A stretch of 62,390 bases of DNA from Burkholderiales bacterium (GTDB taxonomy: Bacteria; Pseudomonadota; Gammaproteobacteria; Burkholderiales; JAEUMW01): the NCBI GenBank assembly GCA_039807745.1, contig JBDHRV010000003.1, forward strand, positions 1 through 62,390, in the 5' to 3' direction. Under the pieces are notes generated by a model that was not told the DNA's origin, made no database searches, and worked only from the letters and a program-made list of their open reading frames with translations. A program made the translations under genes and the position numbers. Below, piece by piece: positions 4,791 through 62,390 of this stretch (positions are counted from its first letter, which is position 1; every line of letters begins with the position of its first letter).

Positions 4791-4833
4791 AAGCCGATAT
4801 CGGGGCACATTCGGCCATTTTCGGGGGTAGCGG

Positions 4834-4851: not shown

Positions 4852-4857
4852 TGATTT

Positions 4858-5103
4858 CTATCGAGCGCACTCAGTAACCTGTTTCTCGTATTCGAGGATC
4901 GCGCGGTGCTGCGCCTCGATCACGTCCTGAGCCGTGGACCCGTCAGGCAGCGTGACGGCGCGCAGTCGTTTGCAGGCGGCGGGCAGCGGCACGTGGACCG
5001 GCACCTCAACGATTTTCGTCGAGGGCACTACCGCCCGGCCGGCGCAGCCCGTCAAGGAACAGATCAGGTAGAGGCTGGCGCAGGCAATCGAAGCGCGTGT
5101 CAT
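4858..5103 (-). CDS. o-spanin (Rz1-like outer-membrane lipoprotein)
   Basis: The internal ATG 5103 gives MTRASIACASLYLICSLTGC with an LTGC lipobox. It overlaps the i-spanin 3' end in another frame. Confidence 0.7.
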   Translation of the reverse strand: MTRASIACASLYLICSLTGCAGRAVVPSTKIVEVPVHVPLPAACKRLRAVTLPDGSTAQDVIEAQHRAILEYEKQVTECAR

Positions 5104-5919: not shown

Positions 5920-6386
5920 CAGGCGACCGCCTTCTCGAGCAGGTCGATGAACAGGCGCCCGTCGAGATGGTCGATCTCGTGCTGGATCACCGCAGCCAGC
6001 AGGCCCGTGGCCTTCATGCGCTTCCACGTCCCATCGAGATCCCGGTAATCCACGACGATCCGCTTCGCGCGGGTCGTGTAGGCAACCGTTCGGCCTTCGT
6101 TGACCGACAGACAGCCGTCGCGCACGCGCTGCGTGTCGTCGGCCTGCACGATCCGCGGATTGACCATCACGTGCGGGTCGATCTGCGAGGGGCTCACGTC
6201 GACCACAATGAGGCAGCGCGGATCGCCCACCTGCACGGCCGCGAGGCCGATGCCGCGCGCGGCGTACATCGTCGCGAGCATGTTCTCGGCGAGCTCGCGC
6301 AGCGGTGCGCCGAACTCTGCCATCTGGCGGGAGACGCTGCGCAGCAACGGATGAGGGTGCTGCAGGATGTCCAGCACGCGACCCAT
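5919..6386 (-). CDS. def: Peptide deformylase
   Basis: All three PDF motifs are present: GIGLAAVQVG, DGCLS (a variant of EGCLS) and QHEIDHLDG. Confidence 0.85.
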   Translation of the reverse strand: MGRVLDILQHPHPLLRSVSRQMAEFGAPLRELAENMLATMYAARGIGLAAVQVGDPRCLIVVDVSPSQIDPHVMVNPRIVQADDTQRVRDGCLSVNEGRTVAYTTRAKRIVVDYRDLDGTWKRMKATGLLAAVIQHEIDHLDGRLFIDLLEKAVA

Positions 6387-6691
6387 CAGAGGATGCGCGC
6401 GCTCACCACCGGCGCCTCGAGCGGCGTGTCATCGGCGATGACGACCACCGCCGAGCCTGGCGCGCTGACCTCGCCGTTCGACGAGCGGGCGCGCAACTCG
6501 AACTGGTAGAGGCCGGGGTCGCTCACGTCGATGTCGATCGAGGTGGCCTCGGCAGCCGGCTCGGCGATGTCGGTGAAGTCCGGCGCGCCTTCGACGCGCA
6601 TGCTGAGCACGTAGCCGACGAGATCCCCAGCGGCGGCCGGCCGGCCGCTGGTGTGCTTCGTCGGTGCTTCCCATTCAACTCGGATCGTCAT
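6386..6691 (-). CDS. FN3-like single-domain protein (101 aa)
   Basis: The pattern VEWEAPTKHTSG...GYVLSMR...YQFELRARSSNGEVS resembles fibronectin type III. GAGGG RBS. Confidence 0.5.
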   Translation of the reverse strand: MTIRVEWEAPTKHTSGRPAAAGDLVGYVLSMRVEGAPDFTDIAEPAAEATSIDIDVSDPGLYQFELRARSSNGEVSAPGSAVVVIADDTPLEAPVVSARIL

Positions 6692-20000: not shown

Positions 20001-23000
20001 CGACGCCGAAGGGCGGGTTGGCGATCACGACGTCCTGCTTATGATCAGGCGCCGTGGCGTCGCTCATGGCATCGCCGACGACCGGATTGAAGCCCATCGC
20101 CTGCAGCGCTGCCGCGCGATCTGGATTCAGTTCGACCGCGTGCGTGTTCCTGGGACTCGCCTCGATCAGCAGCATGCCGTTGCCGGCCGAGGGCTCGTAG
20201 ACGGAGGTCTCGCTCGTGACGCCCGCGAGGCGCGAAGCCAGGAACGCGAGCGGCGCCGGGGTCGAGTACGCTTGCTGCGCCACGCTCGTCGAGGTGCGCG
20301 TGCTGAGCTTGGGCTGCTTGCGGTAGAGGTCCACGAGGTCAGCGAATGTGCGGGCCGGGTCGTTCCCTTCGCCCGCGATGTCGCGCGCTGCGGCCACCAC
20401 GGCCGTTTCGATGATTTCGTCGACGTACTTCAGATCAGCGTCGGTGATCGGTTGCCCGGTCAGTTCGCTGAGGAACTTGCGCGCCTCGACGATCGACTTG
20501 AACCCCTCGCCGCGCAGGCGGGACACAAGCGCATCCATCGCAGCGCCCACCGCCGCCGCTTCGGCGGCGTCATCGGTCTCGCTGGCGCTGGACTCCGGGG
20601 CCGTATCGACGGGTGCAGCCAGGTTGGCCTCCTGCCAACCGCGCGACCACTCCTTCGCCGCCTTCAGCGTCTGGTCAGCCGTGATGACTTCGGTCGGCAC
20701 GGCGGCCGGCTTGCCAGCCAGGAATGCAGCCTTGCCCTGCTCGTAGGGGCTCAGGGTCTGCGTGGGCCGCCCGGCGCTGTCCGCTTCATGCAGATCGAAT
20801 GCCTCGACGTCACCGGCCGAGTCCATCTGCTTCTCGAAGGGCTTTGCGCGCGGGTCGTACTTGACCGCCATGTACCACGACTTGAGGAACGGGCGCACCG
20901 CCTCGCCGAGATCGGCGATCATGGCCTCGGCGAAGGCCGCGAACGTGCGCGCGCCCTTCTCGATGTGATAGCCGGCGAGCGTGATGCCCGCGTTCAGCAG
21001 TTCGGGGTCAATGCCGGTGTTGATCTGCCCGAGTTTCTTGCGCAGCACCGCGCGCGCAGCTTCAGCGGCGTCCTCGGTGAAGATCGTGTTCTTCGAGGGT
21101 CTTGGGGCTGCCTTCGGCGCCGCGGTCTCGGTGAGGTCCGTCTGCTGGCGCGCCTGGCTGAACAAGTCGGACGGATCGCCGGTCTCGGTCGAGTCCTGCC
21201 CGCTGTTGCGCTTCTCGTCGCGCCGGCGCTGCTCGTCGGCGAGCGCCTGCTTCGATACCGGCGCCTCGCCGAACAGGTCGCGCTCTGGTGCCTTCCCGGC
21301 CGGCGGAGCCGGCGCGGCGTCTGGCGGTGCGGCGATCTCGTACTGCTTCGCGAGCCGATCCGCGAGCGCCGTGGCCGCCTCGCGCATTGCCGGCGTGTGG
21401 TCGGCCTGCTGGTTCGACGCGATGCCCCGCATCCAGTTATGCAGGATCGTGGCGGCGCCGTTGATCGCCTCCTCGCGCGTGTCAGCCATGCTCGGTACGC
21501 GGTCATCGAGCGGGCCGGTGCGGCCGAGCATGGTGCCGGTGCGGAACTGGTAGCCGGAGACCGCGCCCCACCGACCATCGGCGAAGCGCCCGAACAGGAT
21601 GTGGGCTTCGAGGCCCTTCTTGCCGCCGGTGATGAATTCGAGCCGTTCTTGGCTCTCGGGCCGCTCGGGGCGGCGCGGCGTTACTTTTGCCGGAGCTTCT
21701 TCGCGACCGCCGCGTCGAACATTTCCCGCATCTGCCTGATCGCCCCGGCGCGCTTCTCCGGCGGGAGGCTGCGCAGGAGGGCCTTGTCCTCCTGAATCAT
21801 CCGGTGCAGGGCCGGATTCCTCGCCGCGAGCGCTCTCGTTTTCTCGCCGGAACCACTCATCTTGCGCGCGTTCCTCGTCGTTGAGGTGGGCATGGTACTC
21901 CTGAATGTCCGCCTCGGACATCACGCTGGCGGCACGCTCCTCGGCCCGGCGCCGCAGCAACTTGACCAGATCCGCATCGCTGATCGCGTTGGCCCGGACG
22001 GTCTGTTCGGCCGCCTCGGTCATACCCTCGATGACGCGCTGCTCGCGCGCGGTGAGTTTCTCGCCCGCGAGCGCCTTCTCGACCAGCGCGACATAGTCGC
22101 CGTCCTTGCCGAGCTTGGTGGACAGGCCCGCGAACCACGGCTCATGCGGCAGCCATTTCGTGCGGCCAACGACGGTGCTGTAGTCCGGGCTGTCTGGGTC
22201 GTCGGACTTGCGGATCATGCGCCCGCCGGTCTCAGACCATCCGGCATGGGGCGCCATGCGGCGCAGTTCTTCGGTCACACCGGGGACGGCCAGCCGCTCC
22301 GCCGTCTCGGGCGCGACGTTCGGGTAGCGGGAATGGGCAGCTTCGTCCGGGGTGAGATCGGCCGCGCTGCCCTGCGGGCTCTGCGCCGGCGTGCTGTGCG
22401 CGCCATCGGCGAGCCAGGCCTTGAACTGTTCCGGCGTGAACTGCGCGATGCCGAGCAGGCCCTTCTCCATGCGCTGACCGAGCCGGCCGCTGAATGAGGC
22501 GCGGTAGGCGGCGCGCGCAGCGTCGACGTCGGCGTAGCCCATGAAGGTCTTGTGCTCGTCGAACTGCCCCGTCTCGAGGTTCGCCTGGTTGAACACGAAG
22601 ATGGGCAGCGAGGCGTTCTCGGGATCTGGCCCGAGCGTGACGTCGATGTGGTCCTTGTCCTTGCCGACGGTGCCGCGGATGTAGCCGTAGTGGTCCGGCA
22701 TCGTCGTTTTCCACGCCCTGCCGTCCTTGTTGGTACCGCTGCGCACCGACCCGCGCGGATTCTCGATGCTGATGTCGAGCCCCTGCACGCGGACATGGCC
22801 CTTGGCATAGTTGCCGGCCTCCTTCTGCGCCTCGGTGGGTTCGGCCTTGCCGTTCGTCGGCGAGGTCGCCGCAGCGTTCGCGGCCGCGTCGATCGACGAT
22901 GGCTGCTGAGCCGTTTGCGGCTCACCCTGGGCAGCGCCAGCCCCGGCGGCGGCCGTCTCGGCCCCTACCGCTGCCTCGCTACCGGCCTGGGGCTGCCCCG

Positions 23001-24657
23001 CTCCTGCGGCTCCTGCGTCGGTCTCAGGGGCGGTCCCGGTGGCGTCCGTGATCAGGTCGCGGAGCGCCTGCGCCGCCTCCGGCATCGTGATCTGCTTGCG
23101 CACCGCGGCCCGCGTGATCTGCTGCACAGCGCCGACGTCGATCCCCTCGGTGGCCTGCGCCTGACGGGCGAGCGCGCTCAGGGTCGCCATGTTGACCTGT
23201 TCGTCCACCGGCGCCGCAGCCTCCGGCGCGCCCCCGGGCGGCGGTGCGCCAGGCGGAGATCCCGGCGCCGTGCCAGCGGCCGGGGCGTCCGGCGCCGGGC
23301 TCGTGGCAGACGCTGCGCCGCCCGGCCGACCCGTCGCGTAACCGATGCCACCGCCGATCAGGCCACCCGCGGCCGCGCCGCCCACCGCCTGGTTCGCTGC
23401 CTGCAGGTACGGGTCGGCCTGATCACCTGTGACGCCCGCCTCGCGCAGCGCCAGCGCCTGCAGCGCACCCTCGGCGCCGGACTGCACGAACTCCTGCCCC
23501 ATTTCCTCGAGCGCACTGACGCCGGCGTTCGCCGCGCGGCCGCGCGCGGCATGCGCAGCCGCCTCGGCGACGCGGCCGGTCAACAACTGGCGCGCGCGAC
23601 CGGCGACCGGGCCGGCGATCGGGCCAGCGGCGAACGTCGTCGCCGCGACCTTCAGGCCCGTAGCGCTGCCGAGCTCGTTGGCGAGTGTCTCGCGGGCATA
23701 GAGAAATCGCTCCTCTGGACCAAGTTCCTGCGCAGCGTCGTAGATTTCCATGAACCGCGGGGAATGGCGCAGCGTCGCCATGTCGAGCGCGTTGACCTGA
23801 TCACGCACCTGCTGCTCGGCAAGTGGTGCCGCGACGGAGGTCTCGCCGAGCCCGTAGCCGGCAGCGTCGAGGATGGCGTCGATCTTCTTCAGGCGCGCCT
23901 CGGCGGCCGTATTGCCGGCGCGCGCGAGACGCTCGAGACCGGCGCGGCGGAACAGCCCCTTCGTGCCCGAGCGCAACAGCTGAGCGGCACCACCACCGGC
24001 GCCGATGCCTGCGACGACACCGGGGATACTTTGTCCCGCCTGCCCGAGCAGCGTGAGGATGTCTGCGTCGCCCCATGTGAGGTTGCCCTCGGCGTCGCGG
24101 CCGACCCAGTTCTTCTGCAGCGAGGCCTGCATCTGCGGGCTCATCTCGCTCTGGATGTCCTGCTGCAGGGCCTGGAACGCGGCATCGCGCACCTGGGTCT
24201 GCTCGCCGAGCTGCTGCACGACGTCGAGGTTCGCCTTCGGGTTCACCTTCTGCGCGACGTTGCCCATGAGGCGTATCGCCGCTTCCTGCACGGTCCCCGG
24301 TGTCGGGATCGGCGAGGTGGCGACCTCGCGCACAAGGTTTGCCGTTCCGCTGGCGAGCACCTTCGGCGCATCGGACAACTTGCCGCGGGTGAACGGCGAG
24401 AAGAAGGCGTCGAGCGCGCCTCGCGGCAACTGGTCCGGCGAGTACAGTCGCTGCTGTGGGTCGATCGTCGGCTGCTGCGGCTGCGACGGGATCAGTTCCT
24501 GCGCGGCAGGACGCCCCCATGATTCATCGAGCAGTGGATCGACGCCGCGATCCGGCAGCGACCGCGCAAGCTGGATCAGCGGGTCGCGGTCGAAGTCATC
24601 GCTCGCGGAAAGATTCGCGAGAAGTTCGCCCTCATCAAAGAGGGGGATGCGGGCCAT
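11032..24657 (-). CDS. Giant polyvalent protein (4541 aa), probably virion-packaged or ejected
   Basis: Single uninterrupted ORF with ATGA overlaps at both ends. It lies between ejection-type proteins and terL. Several enzyme motifs are listed below as sub-features. Confidence 0.9.
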   Translation of the reverse strand: MARIPLFDEGELLANLSASDDFDRDPLIQLARSLPDRGVDPLLDESWGRPAAQELIPSQPQQPTIDPQQRLYSPDQLPRGALDAFFSPFTRGKLSDAPKVLASGTANLVREVATSPIPTPGTVQEAAIRLMGNVAQKVNPKANLDVVQQLGEQTQVRDAAFQALQQDIQSEMSPQMQASLQKNWVGRDAEGNLTWGDADILTLLGQAGQSIPGVVAGIGAGGGAAQLLRSGTKGLFRRAGLERLARAGNTAAEARLKKIDAILDAAGYGLGETSVAAPLAEQQVRDQVNALDMATLRHSPRFMEIYDAAQELGPEERFLYARETLANELGSATGLKVAATTFAAGPIAGPVAGRARQLLTGRVAEAAAHAARGRAANAGVSALEEMGQEFVQSGAEGALQALALREAGVTGDQADPYLQAANQAVGGAAAGGLIGGGIGYATGRPGGAASATSPAPDAPAAGTAPGSPPGAPPPGGAPEAAAPVDEQVNMATLSALARQAQATEGIDVGAVQQITRAAVRKQITMPEAAQALRDLITDATGTAPETDAGAAGAGQPQAGSEAAVGAETAAAGAGAAQGEPQTAQQPSSIDAAANAAATSPTNGKAEPTEAQKEAGNYAKGHVRVQGLDISIENPRGSVRSGTNKDGRAWKTTMPDHYGYIRGTVGKDKDHIDVTLGPDPENASLPIFVFNQANLETGQFDEHKTFMGYADVDAARAAYRASFSGRLGQRMEKGLLGIAQFTPEQFKAWLADGAHSTPAQSPQGSAADLTPDEAAHSRYPNVAPETAERLAVPGVTEELRRMAPHAGWSETGGRMIRKSDDPDSPDYSTVVGRTKWLPHEPWFAGLSTKLGKDGDYVALVEKALAGEKLTAREQRVIEGMTEAAEQTVRANAISDADLVKLLRRRAEERAASVMSEADIQEYHAHLNDEERAQDEWFRRENESARGEESGPAPDDSGGQGPPAQPPAGEARRGDQADAGNVRRGGREEAPAKVTPRRPERPESQERLEFITGGKKGLEAHILFGRFADGRWGAVSGYQFRTGTMLGRTGPLDDRVPSMADTREEAINGAATILHNWMRGIASNQQADHTPAMREAATALADRLAKQYEIAAPPDAAPAPPAGKAPERDLFGEAPVSKQALADEQRRRDEKRNSGQDSTETGDPSDLFSQARQQTDLTETAAPKAAPRPSKNTIFTEDAAEAARAVLRKKLGQINTGIDPELLNAGITLAGYHIEKGARTFAAFAEAMIADLGEAVRPFLKSWYMAVKYDPRAKPFEKQMDSAGDVEAFDLHEADSAGRPTQTLSPYEQGKAAFLAGKPAAVPTEVITADQTLKAAKEWSRGWQEANLAAPVDTAPESSASETDDAAEAAAVGAAMDALVSRLRGEGFKSIVEARKFLSELTGQPITDADLKYVDEIIETAVVAAARDIAGEGNDPARTFADLVDLYRKQPKLSTRTSTSVAQQAYSTPAPLAFLASRLAGVTSETSVYEPSAGNGMLLIEASPRNTHAVELNPDRAAALQAMGFNPVVGDAMSDATAPDHKQDVVIANPPFGVVRTDSGATRGFTVDVGGDFPSMQTNEIDHAISLHALSYLKDDGRAVLIIGGINKLARTEEARSDAYNGAAKRKFFYHLYRLYNVVDHFTVAGELYERQGAGWPVDVIVIHGRGKSSRDLPAADVPRVYSDWAAMAPLLESGDGQASGLGADAEGTGRVPRGGLVRPDSGAGSRSVSGPARGPDTGAGGRLSQSAGGGRAAAPESVGRGAVSGRGERATGVGGEPTGLEQSGDSRAAGSARGAARPGSEAGGNAGSANADRGGPGRSDGSARGVGRPDGKAPVASEGQSPYEPTSSADSVGTLVPSNMRSAIADSLSALVDRVGPLDEYVARELGYEPSSIGKYFSGEQVDALALALDQMQRGAGFIIGDQTGVGKGRVVAGVIRYALKNGRTPIFVTEKPNLYADMYRDLTDIGMQDIRPLMTNAGEKVPLDDDGKVVLKTPAGKAHSQALEEMASTGDLGAHNIVFTTYSQMQTLKGAETSRMAFLRAIAPNAIVIFDESHNAGGNDSARKNQRQMEADAGSKKTGRAAFARALAGLASGVFYSSATYAKRPSVMDLYFKTDMRMAVGGNVEALPDAIQAGGVPLQQVVASMLARAGQYIRRERSFEGVEYNTAETTVDRPAAEQISAIMLSVKEFDDAKKEAVKALAQAAKREAKQISGDGVTGAAGAESTNFTSIMHNAIDQMLLGLKAERAAELAIEALKRGEKPVITVANTMGSFIEEYAEAAGMKSGDAINLTFGDLLARYLERSRDVRIKSPDGTSSRHRMSDEELGPFALSAYRAAEALVRGAGEIASMPVSPIDWIHARIQAAGYTSGEITGRTHTIDYSSAGGRPIYRSRGSKATSIFGRRKTITDFNSGKLDVVVLNQAGATGLSLHASEKFKDKRRRRMIIAQAEKNIDTHMQMLGRVHRTGQVVAPAYDQLVADVPAEKRPAAVLAKKMASLNANTTASRTSAVTSKDTVDFLNQYGDEVVAQLMADLPDVHRRLGEPLDNDSEGFVTEDAARKVTGRIPLLPVAEQEELYDMIESGYREAIARADAMGENALEAKTLELDAKTTERRTLFEREGDSNSPFADAAYLETVDAKRLGKPYTSEQVRELAAGEAGLGKDAAWDDIKDAAAEKWRRTASDTRDSFQQYRAGLEKAMFDAGAKDVVARARLGVLDGQFDRWKGLADTLTPGETYELQLKNGAVFYGVLLDITRKKGVKMPVANGSWVARFAVADGARQIALPFSKLTTSREDAARPEARVTYVEARAEHPLLGSILKMFDAGQSTSRENRHIVTGNLLAGFSKLPRGQIVHYTDDTGATRQGVLLPRNFDIKEFEAAQPIELPPAAAMKLLKSHPQARVETADGSVRLLADGDGFLLSTPRSKSGGGDVYLDPQVRAITGDFVSVANSMRAGITAEQARRVLPILAEKFGPLQAESHHKEAIAAGGRRAIGNVVPPDSTDSTQVRENAAVYEGEAAKDPKVRARRRKVAASRPAKAGRGNVQPAGPVQIDIFANDALPLQGQQAARTFDRVALVETGRFKTGITTIDEWTAAAHIIAPLRKIPQEQFLMLAIDKRRRPLAVLRHTVGLRDSSNVDPGTVFGHIASVPNVAKVYFAHNHPSGVIEQSEADHLITDHLNALMRGSGIEVGGMIVVAPGSRKASLYTPGTYGDLDQRIQPAVRKESVPMLERRFTRIQPDKFIVRSSAYVKEAIERFASRMESGLLFLNGRHHVVGVLPTSVAEMGRLRTDDPRTSHARLFAEASKANASAAIAVVPEGEESVNAARNAMTALAAGNIRDLDIAQRGANGSLRMASDRSERITNDAFYSRAGATPAAGASVTQVKEWLSAAIEKTRGAANTHVVADVAALREATGDPSIPDDVEGVYFDGESRIYLVASALPTREEALRKYTHEMFGHLALEQYGDIDRAVRMVRNMRRMGSKSIGALWQEVALTQPGLDPVRHAKEVIALMAERGVKNSMLDRLLAWARDLLRSWGVDIEYSDAEVRALIARAARALQEAARISGADRVRAAKIDAAATEEAALRQLNAMDLADSPLIGSGAPLDAYYTRPAVLDKETLGETDIEALDDAIAAALFETPGPDRERLYSRRAPEDPEITRIRRHVMANAAHEGLPLKDRMRLFITRVTDISGLAMRQAIVNKFQSIAAYERLMNAGKLLDAALSPYKQTVATQNLGSVMSAILHKGIPAWVNGAYTVANDGRKGILEIFAPLVNHPDGNLLPQWELYAAARRASRLIEEGRERLFTQEMIDRSLELEQKYPIFKDVFDDWQTFNTQTLDMAQEAGLIDPEARAIWERHDYVPFYRAMESVSGRVNAVSLKKSIANQRARIRTLFGGTSPLEDVFESMLMNTAHLVDASFKNRAAQAIVTAFDGVATTRLPKVVQPTTISADQAMRALRAAGVNLVGQEPSSDYLTLFRRVAPVGKNIVSVMFDGKPQYFEVHDPLLLQSIVEMSPNEWLRQIDLFTFGLLSGSKRLLTRAVTAMPGFIMANYLRDTASNVVQNQNKSVGDMLKLTFITESLKGAVAYIADNPVVAEMMMSGAGGDQVYDNERGNLKRTLMREMSDSAARTRLEEMAGTMVSPRRLWKVYTKVQQASENANRIATYRLVRERGGTHAEAAYQAHDVLNFQQRGAHPAMQLLVMMVPFLNARIQGLDRLARGFTANRMGFMFKGLMLTAVTIALMGLGDDDERYRELPQWDRDANWHLFLGKLHLRIPKPFEVGALFGTVPERMIRLMRGQDRFRDVAQSLVRMVTDTFAFNPVPQAFKPVLEAWAGRSFFTNRPILSIAERNLLPEAQYRPWTSPTLISIAQAMPDAAPAFMRSPLQLEHLIRGYLGGMGMMALEVADRSVRAAGGYYDAPSQSPVDVMLRRFARTGEPRVTRWHDELYRMMDAADEAARTVSKLQGERLFEQAREVAKENRQALLLRPKLNHLAKRMRELNAQLRRVQGSRTLTGDQKRAEIERLNAARNDIARQVEPYAGLF
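11035..13710 (-). other. Giant protein aa ~3650-4541: unrecognised C-terminal region with one hydrophobic segment
   Basis: I recognise no motif here. The TM-like FMFKGLMLTAVTIALMGLG lies at nt ~11926-11979, and there is a terminal coiled-coil-like tail. Confidence 0.5.
14068..14475 (-). other. Giant protein aa ~3395-3530: zincin-like metallopeptidase candidate
   Basis: YTHEMFGHLALEQYG, i.e. an HExxGH hexapeptide (nt 14290-14307). This spacing is known from M49 DPP-III. Confidence 0.4.
15058..15435 (-). other. Giant protein aa ~3075-3200: RadC-like JAB/JAMM module
   Basis: FAHNHPSGVIEQSEAD (nt 15172-15189 encode HNHPSG), which fits the JAMM H.H...S..D arrangement. Confidence 0.75.
17098..18975 (-). 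other. Giant protein aa ~1895-2520: Strawberry-notch-type SF2 helicase module
   Basis: P-loop GDQTGVGKGR, DExH box FDESH (nt 18496-18507), and C-terminal LNQAGATGLSLHA...MLGRVHRTGQ. Confidence 0.8.
19138..19584 (-). other. Giant protein aa ~1692-1840: Gly/Arg/Ser/Ala low-complexity linker
   Basis: GDGQASGLGADAEGTGRVPRGG...GGPGRSDGSARGVGRPDG. No secondary-structure-like pattern is visible. Confidence 0.7.
19648..20295 (-). other. Giant protein aa ~1455-1670: N6-adenine DNA methyltransferase module
   Basis: Motif I VYEPSAGNG (nt 20176-20196) and motif IV NPPF (nt 20008-20019). Confidence 0.8.
22522..22824 (-). other. Giant protein aa ~612-712: family-I inorganic-pyrophosphatase-like module
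   Basis: GNYAKGHVRVQGLDISIENPRGSVRSG...W...MPDHYGYIRGTVGKDKDHIDVTLG parallels the PPase E.P.GS / YG.I..T...DGD..DV motifs. Confidence 0.55.
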
Positions 24658-55912: not shown

Positions 55913-56116
55913 ATGAGCACACGCATCTATCGAATCGAGATCGGCGAGCCGACGACGCCGCTGATCGGCCCCTTCCTCGTGCGCGCCAAGACACGCGCGC
56001 AGGCGCTGTCGAGCGTGCTCGACCCGCTGGTGCGCATCGACGTGGCGAACCAGGAGGACCTGCTCTCGCTCGTCGCGGCCGGCACCAAGGTCACCGATGC
56101 GAAGGAGGCCCCATGA
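55913..56116 (+). CDS. Hypothetical protein (67 aa)
   Basis: Table ORF, coupled to bet. Confidence 0.5.
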   Translation: MSTRIYRIEIGEPTTPLIGPFLVRAKTRAQALSSVLDPLVRIDVANQEDLLSLVAAGTKVTDAKEAP

Positions 56117-56943
56117 GCGCCAAGGGAACACATGCTGCCGTGGCCGGACCGGCCGCGCCCGCCGCCGCGCCGACCCTCGCCGGCAAGCCCAGCCTCGTCA
56201 TGCGCATCGCGAGCCGCTTCGGCGTCGATGCCGACAAGATGCTCGACACGCTCAAGCAGACGGCGTTTCGCACCGAGAAGCCGGCCAGCAACGAGCAGAT
56301 GATGGCGCTGCTCGTCGTCGCGGAGCAGTACGGACTGAATCCGTGGACGAAGGAAATCTACGCCTTCGAGGACAAGTACAAGGGCATCGTCCCGGTGGTG
56401 TCGATCGACGGATGGGTGCGCATCATCAACGAGCGCCCTGAACTCGACTTCATCACCTTCGACTACGCGCCAGATGACTCCGAGGATGCGTGGATCGAGT
56501 GCACGATCGGCCGCAAGGATCGCAGCCGGCCCATCGTCGTGCGCGAGTACCTCAAGGAGTGCTACCGCAAAACGGGACCGTGGGACTCGCATCCGCGCCG
56601 CATGCTGCGCCACAAGACCCTGATCCAGTGCGCGCGCGTGGCCTTCGGATTCGCAGGCATCTACGACCCTGATGAGGCCGAGCGCATTCGCGACGCGAAT
56701 GCCATCGAAGGCTCGTTCACGGCGGTCAGCACGAAGCCGGCCACCGAGGCGCCGAAAGCCATCGAGAGCAAGACGGAAGCGCCGAACGTCGTGCCCGTCG
56801 GCGACCTGCAGCGCCTGATCGACAAGACCGGCATCCCGGAATCGGGCTTCCTGCACCGCTTCGAGATCGACTGCATCGAGTCGCTGCCGCTGAGCCGCGT
56901 CGGCGAGGCTTTCGAGTATCTGCATGGCATCAATGCGGGCTGA
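56113..56943 (+). CDS. bet: Bet-family single-strand annealing recombinase
   Basis: Long stretches match lambda Bet as I remember it: AEQYGLNPWTKEIYAFEDKYKGIVPVVSIDGWVRIINE and GPWDSHPRRMLRHKTLIQCARVAFGFAGIYDPDEAERI. Confidence 0.85.
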   Translation: MSAKGTHAAVAGPAAPAAAPTLAGKPSLVMRIASRFGVDADKMLDTLKQTAFRTEKPASNEQMMALLVVAEQYGLNPWTKEIYAFEDKYKGIVPVVSIDGWVRIINERPELDFITFDYAPDDSEDAWIECTIGRKDRSRPIVVREYLKECYRKTGPWDSHPRRMLRHKTLIQCARVAFGFAGIYDPDEAERIRDANAIEGSFTAVSTKPATEAPKAIESKTEAPNVVPVGDLQRLIDKTGIPESGFLHRFEIDCIESLPLSRVGEAFEYLHGINAG

Positions 56944-57514
56944 GTCGCTCCACTTCGACGCGGAGTCGCACACGTACCGGCTCGCCGGTCGTGTGCTGCC
57001 GAGCGTGACGCAGGCGCTGCGGTTCCTCGAGAACTTCGAGAATGTTCCGCAGCGCCTGCTCGAGGCGGCTGCCGAGTTTGGTCGGCACGTCCACGAGGCC
57101 TGCCACCTGCACAACATGGGGCGCCTCGACTGGAGCGCGCTCGACCCCGCCCTGCACCCATACGTCTCGGCCTACGACAAGTTCCTGATCGAGACCGGCT
57201 TCGTCGTCACGGCCAGCGAGGAGCGCGTCGTGAATGCCCGGTACGGTTTCGCCGGCACACTTGATGTGCGCGGCCGCTACAAGCGGCGCCCAGGCCTCGT
57301 CGACATCAAGTCGACAGCGGCCCTGCCCGCGACGGTCGGGCCACAAACGGCCGCCTATGAGAAGTGCTGCGAGGGATCTCACCGCCGCTACGCGCTGCTG
57401 CTGCGTCCAGATGGCGAGTTTCGATTCAAGCCACTCACCGACCTGCGCGACTGGCCGCTGTTTCTGTCCTGTCTGAACCTGCACAACTACAAGGGATCAC
57501 ACCATGCCCCCTGA
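56924..57514 (+). CDS. PD-(D/E)XK (Cas4/RecB-like) exonuclease, Bet partner
   Basis: HTYRL.GRVLPSVTQAL, GRHVHEA, and GTLDVRG...LVDIKS (D...D.K). Confidence 0.65.
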   Translation: MASMRAESLHFDAESHTYRLAGRVLPSVTQALRFLENFENVPQRLLEAAAEFGRHVHEACHLHNMGRLDWSALDPALHPYVSAYDKFLIETGFVVTASEERVVNARYGFAGTLDVRGRYKRRPGLVDIKSTAALPATVGPQTAAYEKCCEGSHRRYALLLRPDGEFRFKPLTDLRDWPLFLSCLNLHNYKGSHHAP

Positions 57515-58289
57515 AACCGACTTCACGACCAAGCCCGAGGTGATCGAGGCCCGTGAGCTCGCCGAGCGCGCCACCACCGCCGTCAACGGCTACCGCATCG
57601 CCACGCCCGAGCAGTACATCGAGAGCGCGACCGTGCTGCGCAAGATCAAGGCCGGCCAGAAGCGCCTCGAGGAACTGCGCACCGCGATCACGAAGCCGCT
57701 GAACGCTGCCCTCAAGGCCGCGAACGACCTGTTCCGCGCGCCGGCCGAGCAGCTCGCCCAGGTCGAGCGGCAGATCAAGGCAGAGATCAACCGCTACGAC
57801 GCCGAGCAGGAGCGGATTCGCCGCGAGGAGCAGCGCCGCGCTGAAGAAGTGGCGCGCCGCGAGCGCGAGGTCGCCGAGGCGAAGGCCCGCGCCGCGCGCG
57901 AGAAGGCGGACGCCGAGGCCGCTGAACTGCGCCGCCGTGCAGAGGAGGAAGCCGCTGCCGGCCGCGCCGCCGAGGCCGCGAAGCTCGCGGCGAAGGCGGA
58001 CTCGAAGGTCGAACGTGCCGAAGCGCGCGCCGATGCGCTCGAACTGCAGGCGGCGTCCGTCGTCGCGCCCGTGATCCAGCGCGAGGCACCGAAGGTGGCT
58101 GGCATCGCCAAGCGTACCGTCTGGCTGTTCGAGGTGACCGACCCCGCGAAGGTCAACCCGGCTTTCACCATTCCCGACGAGAAGAAGATCAGGAAGCTGG
58201 TCAACTCACTCGGCGCCGATGCCGCCCCGCTGCTCGGCGACGGCGTGCGCGTCTGGTCCGAGCAGCAGATCGCCGCAGGGGCCGCCTGA
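57504..58289 (+). CDS. Coiled-coil protein (Gp157-like?)
   Basis: Central Ala/Glu/Arg coiled coil. Its position after the recombination genes is typical. Confidence 0.4.
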   Translation: MPPETDFTTKPEVIEARELAERATTAVNGYRIATPEQYIESATVLRKIKAGQKRLEELRTAITKPLNAALKAANDLFRAPAEQLAQVERQIKAEINRYDAEQERIRREEQRRAEEVARREREVAEAKARAAREKADAEAAELRRRAEEEAAAGRAAEAAKLAAKADSKVERAEARADALELQAASVVAPVIQREAPKVAGIAKRTVWLFEVTDPAKVNPAFTIPDEKKIRKLVNSLGADAAPLLGDGVRVWSEQQIAAGAA

Positions 58290-58319
58290 ACCGCCATCCA
58301 CACGAGGAGCCTGACCACC

Positions 58320-58685
58320 ATGCCACGCCCATTCTTTGAAACCCTGCGCGAGCTGCGCGCCGGCCGCACGCTCGAGGACCTGCAGGACGCGCTCACCGAA
58401 GCCGTGCAGGCCGTCGCGGACACCGGCAAGCACGCCGAGATCAAGCTGACGCTGCGCGTGCGCCCGCCGCGCAAGGGCAGTGCCGCCTACGTCACGATCG
58501 AGGATGACGTGACCGTGAAGCTGCCGAAGCGCGATCGCGGCGACACCGTGTTCTTCCCGCTGCCGGACGGCTCGCTCAGCCGGCAGGACCCCAACCAGAT
58601 GTCGCTCGGGCTCAGGTCCGTGGCAGACCCCACCGTCGATCTCGCCACCGGCGAGATTCTCACCCCTTCCAGGAGCCAGCAGTAA
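58320..58685 (+). CDS. Hypothetical protein (121 aa)
   Basis: Table ORF. Confidence 0.5.
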   Translation: MPRPFFETLRELRAGRTLEDLQDALTEAVQAVADTGKHAEIKLTLRVRPPRKGSAAYVTIEDDVTVKLPKRDRGDTVFFPLPDGSLSRQDPNQMSLGLRSVADPTVDLATGEILTPSRSQQ

Positions 58686-59488
58686 TGGATGCCGAAACCA
58701 TCAAGGAGATCGTGAACACGATCCGCGTTCAGCCGCCCGTCCTCAGCCGCATCGACGAGGAAACCGCCTATGCGGTCGTGCCCGAGGGCTACAACATCAC
58801 CGACGTCAGCCACCTGTTGCCGCCGCCGAACCGCCCGAAGCAGCGCGTAGCGCTGCTGTCGATCGAGTCATTCAGCGAGTACGTGTGGAAGTTCAAGGGC
58901 GAGCACGCTGCGGTCTTCGCCAACGAGGCGCAGGTGTCCTACGAGGCGGTGCTCGACTACCACGCGCCGGTCGGTCGCGGGACCTGCGATCACGTCGCGA
59001 CCTTCAAGTGCCAGCACTCGCCGCAATGGCTGGCATGGATCAACCAGAACGGCAAGTTGGTCAAACAGGGCGAGTTCGCGCGCCACATCGAGAACAACCT
59101 GCTCGACATCTGCGAGCCGTCGTCTGCCGACATGATGCAGGTCGCGCTCTCGCTCGACGTGAAGAAGAACGTCAAGTTCCAGAGCGACATCCGCCTCAGC
59201 AACGGCCAGCACCAGTTCCGCTACGAGGAGGAGATCCGCGGCACCGTGCGCGCGCTCGACATCGAAGTGCCAGAAACCTTCCGCCTGTTCATCCCCGTGT
59301 TCGACGATGAGGGCGCCTACGAGATTGCCGCGCGCCTGCGCTACCGGCTGCAGGAGGGCGAGTTGCTGATGGGCTACGAACTCGTGCGCCACCAGCAGGT
59401 GCTGCGCGACGCGACCAAGGCGATCACGAAGAAGATTCGCGAGGCGCTGTTCATCACTGACATGTACGTCGGGGCGCGGGTGTCGTGA
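58685..59488 (+). CDS. YfdQ/DUF2303-family protein
   Basis: 267 aa. The length and the ...SFSEYV...FAN......VLDYH...W..H.A.F... pattern match my memory of DUF2303. Confidence 0.55.
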   Translation: MDAETIKEIVNTIRVQPPVLSRIDEETAYAVVPEGYNITDVSHLLPPPNRPKQRVALLSIESFSEYVWKFKGEHAAVFANEAQVSYEAVLDYHAPVGRGTCDHVATFKCQHSPQWLAWINQNGKLVKQGEFARHIENNLLDICEPSSADMMQVALSLDVKKNVKFQSDIRLSNGQHQFRYEEEIRGTVRALDIEVPETFRLFIPVFDDEGAYEIAARLRYRLQEGELLMGYELVRHQQVLRDATKAITKKIREALFITDMYVGARVS

Positions 59489-59799
59489 CCACCACACCCT
59501 CCTTCCAAGCCTGGGCCATCGTGGAACTGTTCGGGCACCAGCGCTGCGCAGGGCGCATCAGCGAGCAGACGATCGGCGGCGAGACCTTCATCCGCGTCGA
59601 CATCCCGAAAAGCGACGGCAGCGAGTACACGCGGCTGTTCGGCAAGGGCGCCATCTACTGCATCAACATCTGTGAGGAGGCCACGGCGCGCGAGTACGCC
59701 TCGCGGACGTACGCGCCGCTGCAGCCCTACACGTCGTTGCCGGCGCCGCCCGATGACCCTGATCCGGACGACGATCCGGTGATACAGGACTGCCGATGA
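59485..59799 (+). CDS. Hypothetical protein (104 aa)
   Basis: AIVELFGHQRCAGRISEQTIGGETFIRVDIP is a pattern common in prophage early regions. Confidence 0.5.
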   Translation: MTTTPSFQAWAIVELFGHQRCAGRISEQTIGGETFIRVDIPKSDGSEYTRLFGKGAIYCINICEEATAREYASRTYAPLQPYTSLPAPPDDPDPDDDPVIQDCR

Positions 59800-61763
59800 T
59801 GCGCGGCACCCTCGAGATCCGCCACGGTCACCTGTTCTGCGGCATCGGCGGCGGCGCGAAGGGATTCAAGCGCGCATCGGCGCGCGTCGGTCACCTGGCC
59901 GCCCGCTTCCGCTGCATCGGCGGGATCGACGTCGACCCGTCGGCGATCCGTGACTTCGGTGCGGTTGCCGGCGTGCCCGGCACCGTGCTCGACCTGTTCT
60001 CGCGCGAACAGTACATCGACTTCCACGGTCACGAGCCGCCGGCGGGCTGGCGCGAAGCGGTGCCGGCCGACATCCATGCGGCATTCGGTCACGAGCGCCC
60101 GCACATCCTGTTCCTGTCGGCGCCGTGCAAGGGATTCTCCGGGCTCACCTCGGAAAGCCGCAGCCGCAGCGCGCGGTATCAGGCGCTCAATGCGCTCACC
60201 GAGCGGGCACTGTTGCTCGCGCTCGAGGCATACGCCGACGATCCGCCCGAGTTCATCCTGTTCGAGAACGTGCCGCGCATCCAGACGCGCGGCCGCGCGA
60301 TGCTCGATCGCATCGAGCAGATGCTCGGCGCCTACGGCTACGCTAGCGCGGAGACGACGCACGACTGCGGCGAGCTCGGCGGACTGGCGCAGTCGCGCAA
60401 GCGCTTCTTGATGGTCTGCCGCCACGTCGAGAAGGTGCCGCCGTTCCTGTACGAGCCACCGAAGCGGCCTCTCCGTGCGGTTGGCGACATCCTCGGCCGC
60501 ATGCCGCTGCCCGGCGACCTGGCCGCGGGGCCAATGCATCGCGTGCCCTCGCTGCAGTGGAAGACATGGGTGCGCCTCGCCTTCGTCGAGGCCGGCTCCG
60601 ACTGGCGCAGCCTGCGCAAGCTGGCCGTCGAGAACGGCTACCTGCGCGACTACGCGCTCGCGCCGGATGCCGCCTATCACCCCGGCGTCTATGGCGTTCA
60701 GCCGTGGGAGAAGCCCAGCGGCGTTATCACCAGCGAGGCGCGACCGTCGAACGGCAAGTTCAGCGTCGCCGACCCGCGCTTCGCGCAGAGCGCGCACTGG
60801 CACGACGGACAAGCCTACGGCGTGAAGCGGTGGGAGCAGCCGGCGGACACGATCACTGGCCAGAGCACGCCCGGACAGGGCCGCTTCTCGGTGGCTGATC
60901 CGCGCCCTCACAGCGGGCCACTGTTCAGCAAGTACGCGGTCACGCGGTGGGATGGCCGTACCGGCACGGTCATCAGCGGAGACGACACAGGCGCCTACGC
61001 GGTCTCCGATCCTCGCGTCGGCAACGGCGACGCCGGCCCGAAGTTCAACAACTGCTACCGCGTCGTGCCGCTCGATCAGCCCGCCCCATCGGTGACGGCC
61101 GGCACCGGCCCATCCGCCGGCGGACTGGCGGTTGCCGATCCGCGCTACGCTTGGCGCGACGCGCATGAGAGCAAGATGCGCGTCTCGCGATGGGATCAGC
61201 CATCACGCACTGTCACCAGTTCCGATCGTGTCGGCAGCGGGGCGCTCTCAGTGGCAGACCCACGCCCCGCCGGCATCAATCGCCAGAAGGGCGATCACTA
61301 CCTGACCGCTGGCTTCTACGGCGTCGTCCCGTGGGACCGATACGCCGGCACCGTCTCGGCGAGCATGTCGCACGACAACGGCTACGGCAGCGTCGCTGAT
61401 CCTCGGTGCCTGCCGGCGCCGGACGCGCGTCTCGTGGCCGTGATCCGCTCGCTCGACAACACCTGGCACCGGCCGTTCACGACGCTCGAGTTAGCGGCGC
61501 TGCAATCCCTGATCGACCCCGAAGACCTCTTCGCGCCGACCCCGTTCGTACTCGATGGTAGTTCGGACTCAATGTGGCGCGAGCACATCGGCAATATGGT
61601 GCCGCGCGATGCGGCGGCTGCCATCGGCAGCGAGATCGGCCGCACGCTACTGCTCGCGTGGAGCGGCGAGACGTTTGCGCTCGGCTCGACACCGATATGG
61701 GTGCGCCCGATTGCGATCGCCGCTGCGGTGGCAATTCCTCGAACCGAGAGGTCCGCAGCATGA
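59796..61763 (+). CDS. DNA (cytosine-5) methyltransferase with expanded repeat-containing variable region
   Basis: Motif I LFCGIGGG, IV SAPCKGFS, VI FENVP, VIII QSRKRF, IX TTLELAALQS, X IGNMVP. There are six SVADPR-type repeats between motifs VIII and IX. Confidence 0.85.
   Translation: MMRGTLEIRHGHLFCGIGGGAKGFKRASARVGHLAARFRCIGGIDVDPSAIRDFGAVAGVPGTVLDLFSREQYIDFHGHEPPAGWREAVPADIHAAFGHERPHILFLSAPCKGFSGLTSESRSRSARYQALNALTERALLLALEAYADDPPEFILFENVPRIQTRGRAMLDRIEQMLGAYGYASAETTHDCGELGGLAQSRKRFLMVCRHVEKVPPFLYEPPKRPLRAVGDILGRMPLPGDLAAGPMHRVPSLQWKTWVRLAFVEAGSDWRSLRKLAVENGYLRDYALAPDAAYHPGVYGVQPWEKPSGVITSEARPSNGKFSVADPRFAQSAHWHDGQAYGVKRWEQPADTITGQSTPGQGRFSVADPRPHSGPLFSKYAVTRWDGRTGTVISGDDTGAYAVSDPRVGNGDAGPKFNNCYRVVPLDQPAPSVTAGTGPSAGGLAVADPRYAWRDAHESKMRVSRWDQPSRTVTSSDRVGSGALSVADPRPAGINRQKGDHYLTAGFYGVVPWDRYAGTVSASMSHDNGYGSVADPRCLPAPDARLVAVIRSLDNTWHRPFTTLELAALQSLIDPEDLFAPTPFVLDGSSDSMWREHIGNMVPRDAAAAIGSEIGRTLLLAWSGETFALGSTPIWVRPIAIAAAVAIPRTERSAA
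60690..61406 (+). repeat. Six tandem ~40-47-aa repeats inside the C5-MTase (consensus Y.V..W..P..T[IV]T......G..SVADPR)
   Basis: The units end in FSVADPR, FSVADPR, YAVSDPR, LAVADPR, LSVADPR and GSVADPR. Confidence 0.85.
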
Positions 61764-62266
61764 CCCGAGGCTACGCAGCCATCGCGCTTGTGAATCCGAA
61801 GTCGCGGGAGAACGTCGGCGGCGCCCTACGCGCGGCGGGCTGCTACGACGCCTCGCTGGTAGTCATTGCTGGCACTCGACCGGAGCATTACATGGGACGC
61901 ATCGCTACCGACACACAGAAGGCGTATCGACATATCCCGACGCTGCGAGTCGATGATGTGTTCGACGCTTTGCCCTACGACTGCGTCCCGGTTGCAGTCG
62001 ATCTCGTGCCGCACGCGAAATGTCTGTTTGGCTTCACCCATCCCGAGCGCGCGTTCTACATCTTCGGCCCGGAAGATGGAACGCTCGGGAAGGATGTGAC
62101 CGACCGCTGCAAATATGCAGTCTCGGTCCCGACGCGGTACTGCATGAACCTGGCCGCGACGACGAACGTCGTGCTGTACGACCGCATGAGCAAACAAAGA
62201 ACCCTGGATTTTGCTTTATCGCCGCAGGCTGGCGACGGTGCGGACGCACGAAAGGCGGGCTTGTGA
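61760..62266 (+). CDS. SPOUT (SpoU/TrmH-type) RNA 2'-O-methyltransferase
   Basis: Motif 1 NVGGALRAAG, motif 2 YIFGPEDGTLG, motif 3 VSVPTRYCMNLAATTNVVLYD. ATGA overlap with the C5-MTase stop. Confidence 0.75.
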   Translation: MTRGYAAIALVNPKSRENVGGALRAAGCYDASLVVIAGTRPEHYMGRIATDTQKAYRHIPTLRVDDVFDALPYDCVPVAVDLVPHAKCLFGFTHPERAFYIFGPEDGTLGKDVTDRCKYAVSVPTRYCMNLAATTNVVLYDRMSKQRTLDFALSPQAGDGADARKAGL

Positions 62267-62390
62267 TTTTGGAACGAGCGCCACGACCCGCAGACGCCAC
62301 CACGCCCGACCTATTCGGCGGCGAGCCCGACAAGCCGCGCGGCAAGCACTACGTCGAGCCACGAGGCTATGCCGCGCCACCCGGCACTGG
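62263..62390 (+). CDS. Small Cys-rich zinc-ribbon-like protein, 5' part (continues across the junction into 1..243)
   Basis: GTG 62263 overlaps the SPOUT stop (GTGA). The frame is continuous with 1..243 once the overlap is collapsed, giving 97 aa with ETCGTC...KC...PAC. Confidence 0.6.
   Translation, partial: MILERAPRPADATTPDLFGGEPDKPRGKHYVEPRGYAAPPGT
62314..62390. repeat. Contig-end overlap, copy 2
   Basis: Exact 77-nt identity with 1-77. Confidence 0.95.

What the first reader, a model, noticed from the sequence alone, without database searches (positions are those of the whole stretch)
59796..61763. C5 DNA methyltransferase with six tandem TRD-like repeats, possibly multispecific
All of the conserved C5-MTase motifs I checked for are present: I, IV, VI, VIII, IX and X. 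The variable region between motifs VIII and IX is expanded to ~350 aa. It contains six consecutive 40-47-aa units, each with the pattern W-(E/D)-x-P-x-x-T-(I/V)-T ... G-x-x-SVADPR (nt 60690-61406). Multispecific MTases of Bacillus phages (SPR, phi3T, rho11s) carry several ~40-aa target-recognising domains in tandem. Six units would be an unusually large array. It could give blanket protection against many host restriction systems.
Basis: partly seen in the sequence, partly recalled or inferred. Interest (0 to 1): 0.65.

Follow-up and report, generated by a model that had tools for sequence, protein, structure and literature searches.

The report
Phage cytosine methylase with six reader cassettes
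A temperate phage carries a DNA cytosine-5 methyltransferase whose single DNA-reading segment is replaced by six different ~40-residue cassettes, drawn from a repertoire that relatives mix and match, so one enzyme probably marks several DNA sequences to evade host restriction, though no methylation has been measured.

Summary
ORF 59796-61763 (+) encodes a 655-aa C5 DNA methyltransferase with motifs I, IV, VI, VIII, IX and X. Between VIII and IX lie six 37-47-aa units, each ending in (A/S)DPR. A unit profile finds exactly these six places in the 3.7-Mb assembly.

The gene belongs to a very large, sporadically distributed (pro)phage family (>7000 clusters at 90% identity) with 2 to 11 units. Six is the family's ordinary size.

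Units fall into about 18 recurrent types; this protein reads A-B-G-D-F-C. Each unit resembles same-type units in other proteins far more than its own neighbours. Proteins with 97-100% identical cores differ in internal units. No protein holds two internal units of one fine type.

Type-specific residues sit in two blocks on an invariant scaffold. These blocks align weakly with DNMT1 TRD loops I and II.

The best reading is a multispecific orphan methyltransferase built from recognition cassettes (about 0.55). It works like the Bacillus phage enzymes but shows no sequence relationship to M.SPBetaI TRDs, the one member compared.

Function is untested. I found no description in the searchable literature; earlier agents of this scan read related genes the same way.

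The parts
59796..61763 (+). C5 DNA methyltransferase gene (655 aa, P0001)
   Evidence: ORF; PF00145 E 1.3e-13; phrog_116; Foldseek to DNMT1, M.HaeIII and M.HhaI. It is the only PF00145 gene in the assembly.
59835..59852 (+). Motif I, FCGIGG (AdoMet binding)
   Evidence: Pattern match.
60123..60140 (+). Motif IV, PCKGFS (catalytic Cys111)
   Evidence: P110 and C111 are invariant in 122 distant family representatives. An intein is inserted at about this point in some relatives.
60264..60272 (+). Motif VI, ENV
   Evidence: invariant.
60390..60404 (+). Motif VIII, QSRKR
60594..60614 (+). GSDWRSL, conserved entry of the variable region (matches DNMT1 'GSDWRDL')
   Evidence: Family profile against PDB, domain 2 alignment; nearly invariant columns.
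60660..60779 (+). Unit 1, type A (aa 289-328): ...YGVQPWEKPSGVITSEARPSNGKFSVADPR
   Evidence: profile hit E 7.4e-17. Type A is first in 108 of 121 relatives.
60780..60905 (+). Unit 2, type B (aa 329-370): ...WHDGQAYGVKRWEQPADTITGQSTPGQGRFSVADPR
   Evidence: profile hit E 5.5e-17.
60906..61016 (+). Unit 3, type G (aa 371-407): ...LFSKYAVTRWDGRTGTVISGDDTGAYAVSDPR
   Evidence: profile hit E 4.9e-12. Its best match is unit 6 of 8 in P0038 (S 0.86).
61017..61145 (+). Unit 4, type D (aa 408-450): ...KFNNCYRVVPLDQPAPSVTAGTGPSAGGLAVADPR
   Evidence: profile hit E 2.8e-15.
61146..61265 (+). Unit 5, type F (aa 451-490): ...HESKMRVSRWDQPSRTVTSSDRVGSGALSVADPR
   Evidence: profile hit E 6.8e-17.
61266..61406 (+). 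Unit 6, type C (aa 491-537), the terminal unit next to motif IX: ...GDHYLTAGFYGVVPWDRYAGTVSASMSHDNGYGSVADPR
   Evidence: profile hit E 1.2e-14. Type C is last in 116 of 121 relatives. It aligns, weakly, with mDNMT1 residues 1509-1531.
61470..61505 (+). Motif IX, RPFTTLELAALQ
61590..61604 (+). Motif X, GNMVP
   Evidence: aligned to DNMT1 'GNAVPP'.
59485..59799 (+). Upstream 104-aa ORF whose stop overlaps the MTase start (ATGA); same operon
   Evidence: phrog_29525, unknown function.
61760..62266 (+). Downstream SpoU/SPOUT methyltransferase gene whose start overlaps the MTase stop (ATGA)
   Evidence: Sequence; PF00588 E 2.4e-14.

Best explanation
The gene encodes an orphan C5-cytosine DNA methyltransferase of a temperate phage. 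Its one catalytic core (motifs I-VIII plus IX-X) is combined with six different recognition cassettes.

Each ~40-aa cassette is a copy of the conserved core of a canonical C5-MTase target-recognising domain. It has an invariant scaffold (V..W....TV...G..VADPR) and two type-specific segments. These are the 5-8 residues before and including 'YG', and the loop between 'TVT' and 'G..SVADPR'. They correspond in position to the two major-groove-reading TRD loops of DNMT1.

Inferred mechanism: the cassettes take turns presenting their loops to DNA held by the shared catalytic domain. The enzyme would then methylate several short, probably GC-rich motifs, at most one per active cassette. Phage DNA would be protected against several restriction systems at once. 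Some cassettes, perhaps the near-constant A and C, may be structural or inactive.

Repertoires evolve by gain, loss and replacement of whole cassettes at the conserved VADPR junctions.

Shown here: the enzyme family, the cassette anatomy, the type repertoire, and cassette exchange between near-identical cores. Inferred: that cassettes bind DNA independently, and that more than one motif is methylated.
For: (1) The catalytic machinery is complete. All six motifs checked are present, PF00145 is matched, and the core fold matches DNMT1, M.HaeIII and M.HhaI. Inteins sit at motif IV in some relatives, as they do at essential active sites.

(2) The unit is homologous to the canonical TRD core. hhalign of the unit profile against the monospecific CATCGATG MTase printed in PMC11954522 gives probability 71.5% and E 3.6e-5 over 30 columns. 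The terminal unit falls on mDNMT1 1509-1531. That segment spans the end of TRD loop I (1501-1516) and the start of loop II (1530-1537), the loops that read the CpG in the major groove (PMC6316889).

(3) The conservation pattern is that of specificity determinants. Scaffold columns are near-invariant across all types. Mutual information with unit type exceeds 1.4 bits only in the two loop blocks. Those blocks are conserved within a type (within-type entropy H 0.55-1.8 bits), more so than the W-D-x-P segment (H 2.1-2.6).

(4) Modularity. There are about 18 recurrent types and 93 architectures among 121 proteins. The units of P0001 score 0.16-0.51 against each other but 0.74-0.86 against same-type units at other positions in other proteins.

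(5) Cassette exchange. Cores that are 97-100% identical carry different internal units, for example P0024 ABMDJKC against P0087 ABMDGC, and P0017 AABGDKC against P0113 AABDEC. Ten of 24 type pairs occur in both orders.

(6) Non-redundancy. At fine clustering no protein has two internal units of one type. The observed count is 0 against 69 expected, and 0 of 2000 shuffles reach it.

(7) Context. The gene lies in an early operon of a circular ~62-kb temperate phage, next to Bet/Exo and DUF2303 genes. No restriction gene is adjacent. The same phage encodes a 4541-aa polyvalent protein with an N6-MTase domain, which would be a second candidate anti-restriction device.

(8) The family is sporadic (11 of 401 genomes of the phylum). 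It also occurs in cultured Pseudomonas, Achromobacter, Marinobacter and Sinorhizobium phages.
Against: - No methylation data exist for this gene or, as far as I could find, for any family member.
- AlphaFold2 gave no confident structure for the array in two runs with different alignments (pLDDT below 50). Nothing shows how a cassette would dock.
- The unit profile alone finds no solved MTase. The DNMT1 alignment of the terminal unit is not significant on its own (score -2.6).
- A backbone order is largely kept: B before D before E or F in about 98% of cases. A and C are almost fixed at the ends. Part of the 'type' signal could therefore be positional orthology in a structured array.
- The shuffle tests ignore relatedness among the proteins.
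- Units show no similarity to the TRDs of M.SPBetaI, one of the experimentally proven multispecific enzymes.
Confidence: 0.55

Rival explanations
1. The enzyme is effectively monospecific. Only the terminal cassette next to motif IX (type C), the position of the TRD core in ordinary C5 MTases, reads the target. The other units would be pseudo-TRDs or a flexible, non-specific DNA-binding or spacer array that aids processivity or oligomerisation.
For: Type C is last in 116 of 121 relatives, and it is the unit that aligns with DNMT1. A is almost always first. A backbone order is conserved. AlphaFold predicts no fold for the array. From my own knowledge, pseudo-TRDs exist in the Bacillus phage enzymes (Lange et al. 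1991); this was not checked here.
Against: A spacer would not be expected to conserve type-specific loops. Nor would it be expected to exchange internal units between 97-100% identical cores, or to avoid duplicate types. In distant 2-unit relatives the terminal position is held by other types.
Confidence: 0.2
2. The enzyme is a relaxed or near-non-specific hypermethylase. The cassettes each have very low specificity (1-2 bases), so together they methylate most cytosines in phage DNA. There would be no set of discrete sites.
For: The loops are Gly/Ser/Thr-rich and short. The genome is 67% G+C. [quoted passage not shown]
Against: About 18 sharply distinct, conserved types and active cassette turnover imply that the units differ in what they do. 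With near-total methylation, adding or swapping cassettes would bring little gain.
Confidence: 0.12
3. The units read one long composite site. They would bind successive DNA segments, as zinc fingers or TALE repeats do, so that the array specifies one long, rare target or a regulatory site.
For: Tandem units with a hypervariable loop on a constant scaffold, and partly conserved order.
Against: Each unit corresponds to the part of a canonical TRD that surrounds the flipped base, not to a flanking reader. Order is permuted for 10 of 24 type pairs. A rare long site would not protect a 62-kb phage from restriction.
Confidence: 0.05
4. The repeat array is unrelated to DNA recognition. It could be a decoy, a DNA mimic or a protein-interaction region, or the enzyme could be inactive.
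For: Low-confidence, loop-rich region with 48% G/P/S/T/A.
Against: The region is near neutral (pI 8.65; K+R 26 against D+E 24), not acidic like DNA mimics. All catalytic motifs are intact and invariant across the family. The array occupies exactly the TRD slot.
Confidence: 0.03

Closest known systems
Multispecific C5 MTases of temperate Bacillus phages (M.SPRI, M.Phi3TI, M.Rho11sI, M.H2I, M.SPBetaI)
   Same: One phage-borne orphan C5 MTase core with several contiguous ~40-aa recognition modules between motifs VIII and IX. [quoted passage not shown] Modules differ between related enzymes.
   Different: No detectable homology of the units to the M.SPBetaI TRD region (hhalign probability 0.1%). 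Cores are only 24% identical. Here the modules are clearly homologous repeats on an invariant scaffold ending in VADPR. There are 2-11 of them rather than the 2 to about 4 of the Bacillus enzymes (that figure is from my own knowledge). They are drawn from at least 18 types, in a family of thousands spread over Proteobacteria and their phages. Independent specificities are proven for the Bacillus enzymes and untested here.
Canonical monospecific C5 MTases of the DNMT1-like 'GxDWRxL ... YGR.xWD..s.T.tT ... G..hP' kind (the CATCGATG MTase of PMC11954522; the DNMT1 catalytic domain)
   Same: Same core fold and motifs. Same entry motif GSDWRSL. One unit matches their TRD core preceding motif IX.
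   Different: Those enzymes have a single such element. Here it is repeated six times with diversified loops.
M.(phi)BssHII, a multispecific prophage C5 MTase of Bacillus stearothermophilus (Sethmann et al. 1999, cited in PMC8936443)
   Same: A prophage-borne C5 MTase with several TRDs.
   Different: [quoted passage not shown] Here they form one uninterrupted array. No sequence comparison was made here.
Type I HsdS and Type IIG specificity-domain shuffling
   Same: Specificity evolves by swapping whole recognition domains at conserved junctions.
   Different: Different fold and chemistry (N6-adenine). There are two TRDs that read a bipartite site jointly, not an array of alternative modules.

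Membership tests
C5 cytosine DNA methyltransferases (Pfam PF00145) | Ordered motifs I (FxGxGG), IV (PCxxxS with catalytic Cys), VI (ENV), VIII (QxRxR), IX and X (GNxVP) | tested here: met
   All six found in order. PF00145 at 51.6 bits against a cut-off of 22.
C5 cytosine DNA methyltransferases (Pfam PF00145) | Class I AdoMet-MTase fold of the large domain | tested here: met
   AF2 core pLDDT >90. Foldseek probability 1.00 to DNMT1, MET1, M.HaeIII (1dct) and M.HhaI.
C5 cytosine DNA methyltransferases (Pfam PF00145) | Transfers methyl to C5 of cytosine in DNA | not testable with these tools
Multispecific phage C5 MTases (SPR/phi3T/rho11s/H2/SPbeta type) | Several contiguous ~40-aa TRDs between motifs VIII and IX on one core | tested here: met
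   Six units of 37-47 aa fill aa 289-537 without gaps. This is met as anatomy only.
Multispecific phage C5 MTases (SPR/phi3T/rho11s/H2/SPbeta type) | Each TRD confers an independent target specificity; deleting one removes one specificity | not testable with these tools
   Needs a methylome of wild type and deletion mutants.
Multispecific phage C5 MTases (SPR/phi3T/rho11s/H2/SPbeta type) | Sequence kinship with that enzyme lineage (core and TRDs) | tested here: not met
   Unit profile against M.SPBetaI: probability 0.1%. Whole proteins: 24% identity over 220 aa of the core only, E 5e-4.
Multispecific phage C5 MTases (SPR/phi3T/rho11s/H2/SPbeta type) | Phage-borne orphan enzyme without a cognate restriction gene | tested here: met
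   Neighbours are Bet/RecT, exonucleases, DUF2303, a small ORF and SPOUT. The contig is a circular temperate phage. In phage Dobby the neighbours are primase-helicase and a PAPS-reductase-like gene. Not every ORF of the contig was annotated.
Canonical TRD core of DNMT1-like C5 MTases | The unit is homologous to the 'YGR.xWD...T.tT-loop-G..hP' element before motif IX | tested here: inconclusive
   hhalign probability 71.5%, E 3.6e-5 against one monospecific MTase. The DNMT1 alignment is consistent in register but not significant. The unit profile finds no MTase in PDB.
Structural beta-solenoid or propeller repeat | Units pack into one rigid repeated fold | tested here: inconclusive
   Two AF2 runs gave pLDDT below 50 and no secondary structure over the array. 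This neither supports nor excludes it.

The most novel reading that the evidence does not exclude
A very large, so far undescribed family of proteobacterial (pro)phage C5 methyltransferases has turned the TRD core into an open-ended array of plug-in cassettes. It would hold 2-11 or more units from dozens of types, joined at an invariant VADPR junction. Each cassette would be sufficient to direct the shared catalytic core to a different short motif. The architecture would have arisen independently of the Bacillus phage enzymes. The family would then be a natural, readable 'code' linking a ~40-aa module to an m5C target, usable to predict phage methylomes and to build designer methyltransferases.
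Probability: 0.35. Interest if true: 0.8.

Novelty: new variant of a known kind. Interest (0 to 1): 0.62.

Why it matters
Multispecific C5 methyltransferases are known from a handful of Bacillus phages studied in the 1980s and 1990s. To my knowledge, how several recognition domains share one catalytic centre has never been resolved structurally.

If this family works the same way, it is far larger. It has thousands of clusters in Proteobacteria and in cultured Pseudomonas phages such as phiCTX, Dobby, LKA5 and H66. Its arrays are longer, and its modules are homologous and classifiable.

That would make the module-to-motif relationship testable at scale. It would explain how temperate phages cross many restriction barriers with one gene. 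It would also bear on phage host-range prediction and on engineering methyltransferases with chosen specificities.

In this assembly the gene is the only C5 MTase, so any m5C found there would report on it directly.

Tried and rejected

(2) Structure of the array. AF2 with the 121-sequence family alignment gave a confident core, but the array stayed below pLDDT 50. A second run used a five-unit relative (P0072) with a same-length alignment of 84 sequences. It was worse, with mean pLDDT 45.6. The solenoid question stays open.

(3) Unit profile against PDB sequences. The only hit was a chance one to a viral coat protein, E 1.5.

(4) Homology of the units to M.SPBetaI TRDs: none. Descent from the Bacillus lineage is rejected.

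(5) Silent donor cassettes elsewhere in the genome, as in a pilin-like variation system: none. The profile hits only the six units.

(6) DNA mimic or decoy reading: rejected on charge, pI 8.65.

(7) Recent DNA duplication: rejected. There is no DNA tandem repeat, and the junction codons differ synonymously.

(8) One-unit ancestors. The shortest complete relatives found have two units (P0280, P0362). The 380-430-aa hits are truncated or frameshifted fragments.

(9) Literature. Six full-text searches found no description of this family and no methylome of its phages (plus 41 for DNMT1). The classic Trautner-lab papers are not held.

(10) Horizontal transfer of single cassettes between very divergent cores (unit at least 88% identical with core at most 66% identical): no such pair among 17,050. 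Exchange is visible only as differing content between close cores.
Full report
OBSERVATION

The ORF at 59796-61763 (+) is open and encodes 655 aa. It matches PF00145 (E 1.3e-13), TIGR00675 weakly and phrog_116 'DNA methyltransferase' (E 1.5e-52).

The motifs are all present and in order: I FCGIGG (aa 14-19), IV PCKGFS (110-115), VI ENV (157-159), VIII QSRKR (199-203), IX RPFTTLELAALQ (559-570) and X GNMVP (599-603). The AlphaFold2 core is confident (pLDDT >90 for about 210 residues). By Foldseek it matches DNMT1, MET1, M.HaeIII and M.HhaI with probability 1.00.

The 355 residues between motifs VIII and IX hold six (A/S)DPR anchors at aa 325, 367, 404, 447, 487 and 534. These define six contiguous units of 37-47 aa, nt 60660-61406.

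This is not chance. 'DPR' occurs six times against 0.28 expected, with a maximum of 4 in 20,000 shuffles. A 40-position profile built from 60 units, 54 of them from other proteins, hits exactly these six places in the whole 3.7-Mb assembly (E 5e-17 to 5e-12) and nothing else.

The repeats are ancient. There is no DNA-level tandem repeat. The units are 30-53% identical to unit 1. The VADPR codons differ at synonymous positions.

CONTEXT

The window is a whole contig of a 258-contig assembly. Its two ends share a 77-base direct overlap, so the molecule is circular.

It is a temperate phage. It has an integrase (3567-4790), a major head protein, a portal, an amidase and a replication initiator.

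The MTase lies in a + strand operon. Upstream are a Bet/RecT annealing protein, two exonucleases, phrog_204, DUF2303 and a small ORF whose stop overlaps the MTase start (ATGA). Downstream is a SpoU/SPOUT methyltransferase whose start overlaps the MTase stop (ATGA).

No restriction gene is adjacent. It is the only PF00145 gene in the assembly, and there is no Vsr.

THE FAMILY

The protein has more than 7000 relatives among clusters at 90% identity. It has 382 representatives at 50% identity with E at most 1e-30 to the N-terminal core alone.

Relatives occur in 11 of 401 genomes sampled across the phylum, a sporadic distribution. They also occur in cultured phages: Pseudomonas phages PotUPM1, PP9W, LKA5, Dobby, phiCTX and H66 plus a YuA-like series, Achromobacter CF418P1, Marinobacter PS3 and Sinorhizobium phages.

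Among the 121 closest proteins the unit count runs from 5 to 11. Length follows 43.8 x n + 384 (r 0.95). Distant complete members have as few as two units (P0280, P0362).

CASSETTE BEHAVIOUR

Clustering the 815 units gives about 18 recurrent types with sharp signatures. This protein reads A-B-G-D-F-C.

Its units score 0.16-0.51 against each other. They score 0.74-0.86 against same-type units of other proteins, often at other positions. Its unit 3, for example, best matches unit 6 of 8 in P0038.

The 121 proteins show 93 architectures. Proteins whose cores are 97-100% identical differ in internal units: ABMDJKC against ABMDGC, and AABGDKC against AABDEC. There are 152 such pairs with core identity of at least 85%.

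At fine clustering (71 types) no protein contains two internal units of one type. Shuffling predicts 69 duplicates, and 0 of 2000 shuffles are as low as the observed value.

There are counterweights. A is first in 108 and C last in 116 of the 121 proteins. A backbone order is mostly kept, with B before D before E or F. Still, 10 of 24 frequent type pairs occur in both orders, and phage Dobby reads A-B-E-D-F-C. No case was found of a near-identical cassette in very divergent cores. The shuffle tests ignore relatedness.

WHAT A UNIT IS

An alignment of all units shows an invariant scaffold: V, W, V, G and V-A-D-P-R. The type-specific information (mutual information above 1.4 bits) is confined to two blocks. 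One is the 5-8 residues before and including 'YG'. The other is the loop between T-V-T and G-x-x-S-V-A-D-P-R.

Within a type these blocks are conserved (within-type entropy H 0.55-1.8 bits). That is stronger conservation than in the W-D-x-P segment (H 2.1-2.6). This is the pattern expected of specificity determinants.

The unit profile aligns with 'ATFPSVYGRMEWDKPSPTITTQCFGFGNGRF', the segment preceding motif IX in a characterised monospecific (CATCGATG) MTase printed in PMC11954522. The hhalign probability is 71.5% and E 3.6e-5.

phmmer places the terminal unit (aa 501-523) on mouse DNMT1 1509-1531. The register is consistent, but the score is not significant on its own. In DNMT1, TRD loop I is residues 1501-1516 and loop II is 1530-1537, and both contact the CpG in the major groove (PMC6316889). 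The two variable blocks of a unit therefore coincide with the end of loop I and with loop II.

The family's 'GSDWRSL' also matches DNMT1 'GSDWRDL' at the entry of the TRD.

The array is near neutral (pI 8.65), not acidic.

STRUCTURE

Two AlphaFold2 runs gave pLDDT below 50 and no secondary structure over the array. One used P0001 with the 121-sequence alignment. The other used the five-unit relative P0072 with 84 same-length sequences.

This neither supports nor excludes a rigid repeat fold. TRD loops of DNMT3A order only on DNA binding (PMC6316889), so disorder in isolation would not be surprising.

COMPARISON WITH THE KNOWN

The closest known system in function is the multispecific C5 MTases of temperate Bacillus phages. 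These array several TRDs in one polypeptide to defeat many R-M systems (PMC12707154; primary papers are cited but not held).

I fetched M.SPBetaI from NC_001884. The unit profile shows no similarity to it (probability 0.1%). The cores are 24% identical over 220 aa (E 5e-4).

The architecture is therefore shared and the lineage is not. This family looks like an independent, much larger and more regular realisation of the same idea. I found no paper describing it.

Earlier agents of this scan reached the same reading on related genes in other genomes. I treated those as leads and re-derived the evidence here.

VERDICT

The most likely reading (0.55) is a multispecific orphan C5 MTase built from exchangeable recognition cassettes, serving anti-restriction. 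The main rivals are:
- a monospecific enzyme with pseudo-TRDs or a spacer array (0.20);
- a relaxed hypermethylase (0.12);
- composite long-site reading (0.05);
- a non-recognition or inactive array (0.03).

The decisive test is a methylome of the expressed enzyme and of cassette deletions.

Noticed in passing
window 11032-24657 (-): A 4541-aa ORF is a 'polyvalent protein'. It has InPase, N6_Mtase, Strawberry-notch-like helicase (AAA_34, Helicase_C_4, ResIII), RadC/JAB and LPD38 domains. If it works like other phage polyvalent proteins, it would be a second anti-restriction device in the same phage.
   Followed up: partly
window 61760-62266 (+): A SpoU/SPOUT RNA methyltransferase gene (PF00588, E 2.4e-14) starts in an ATGA overlap with the C5-MTase stop.
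   Followed up: partly
window 1-77 and 62314-62390: The contig's two ends share a 77-base direct overlap, so the ~62.3-kb molecule is circular or terminally redundant. The operon therefore continues from the SPOUT gene into the start of the window.
   Followed up: partly
window 56113-59488 (+): A recombination module lies upstream of the MTase: Bet/RecT-like annealing protein (56113-56943), two exonuclease-like genes (56924-57514 and 57504-58289), phrog_204 (58320-58685) and DUF2303 (58685-59488).
   Followed up: partly
family members P0242, P0250, P0292 (also P0266, P0277, P0287): Some relatives are 830-1200 aa because an intein (Hint plus a LAGLIDADG homing endonuclease) is inserted at about residue 110, at the catalytic motif IV. 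Pfam was run on P0242, P0250 and P0292 only.
   Followed up: partly
L005 (Pseudomonas phage Dobby MK034952) 3501-6640: Dobby's family member has six units in the order A-B-E-D-F-C. It overlaps a downstream 'phosphoadenosine phosphosulfate reductase'-like gene, so the partner gene downstream of the MTase varies between phages (SPOUT here).
   Followed up: no
whole assembly G000: This is the only PF00145 C5 MTase detected in the 3.7-Mb assembly, and no Vsr (PF03852) is present. Any m5C in this organism would come from the phage enzyme, and 5mC deamination would go unrepaired by very-short-patch repair.
   Followed up: no
window 3567-4790 (+): A tyrosine integrase (phrog_1, E 8.6e-63) marks the phage as temperate.
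   Followed up: no
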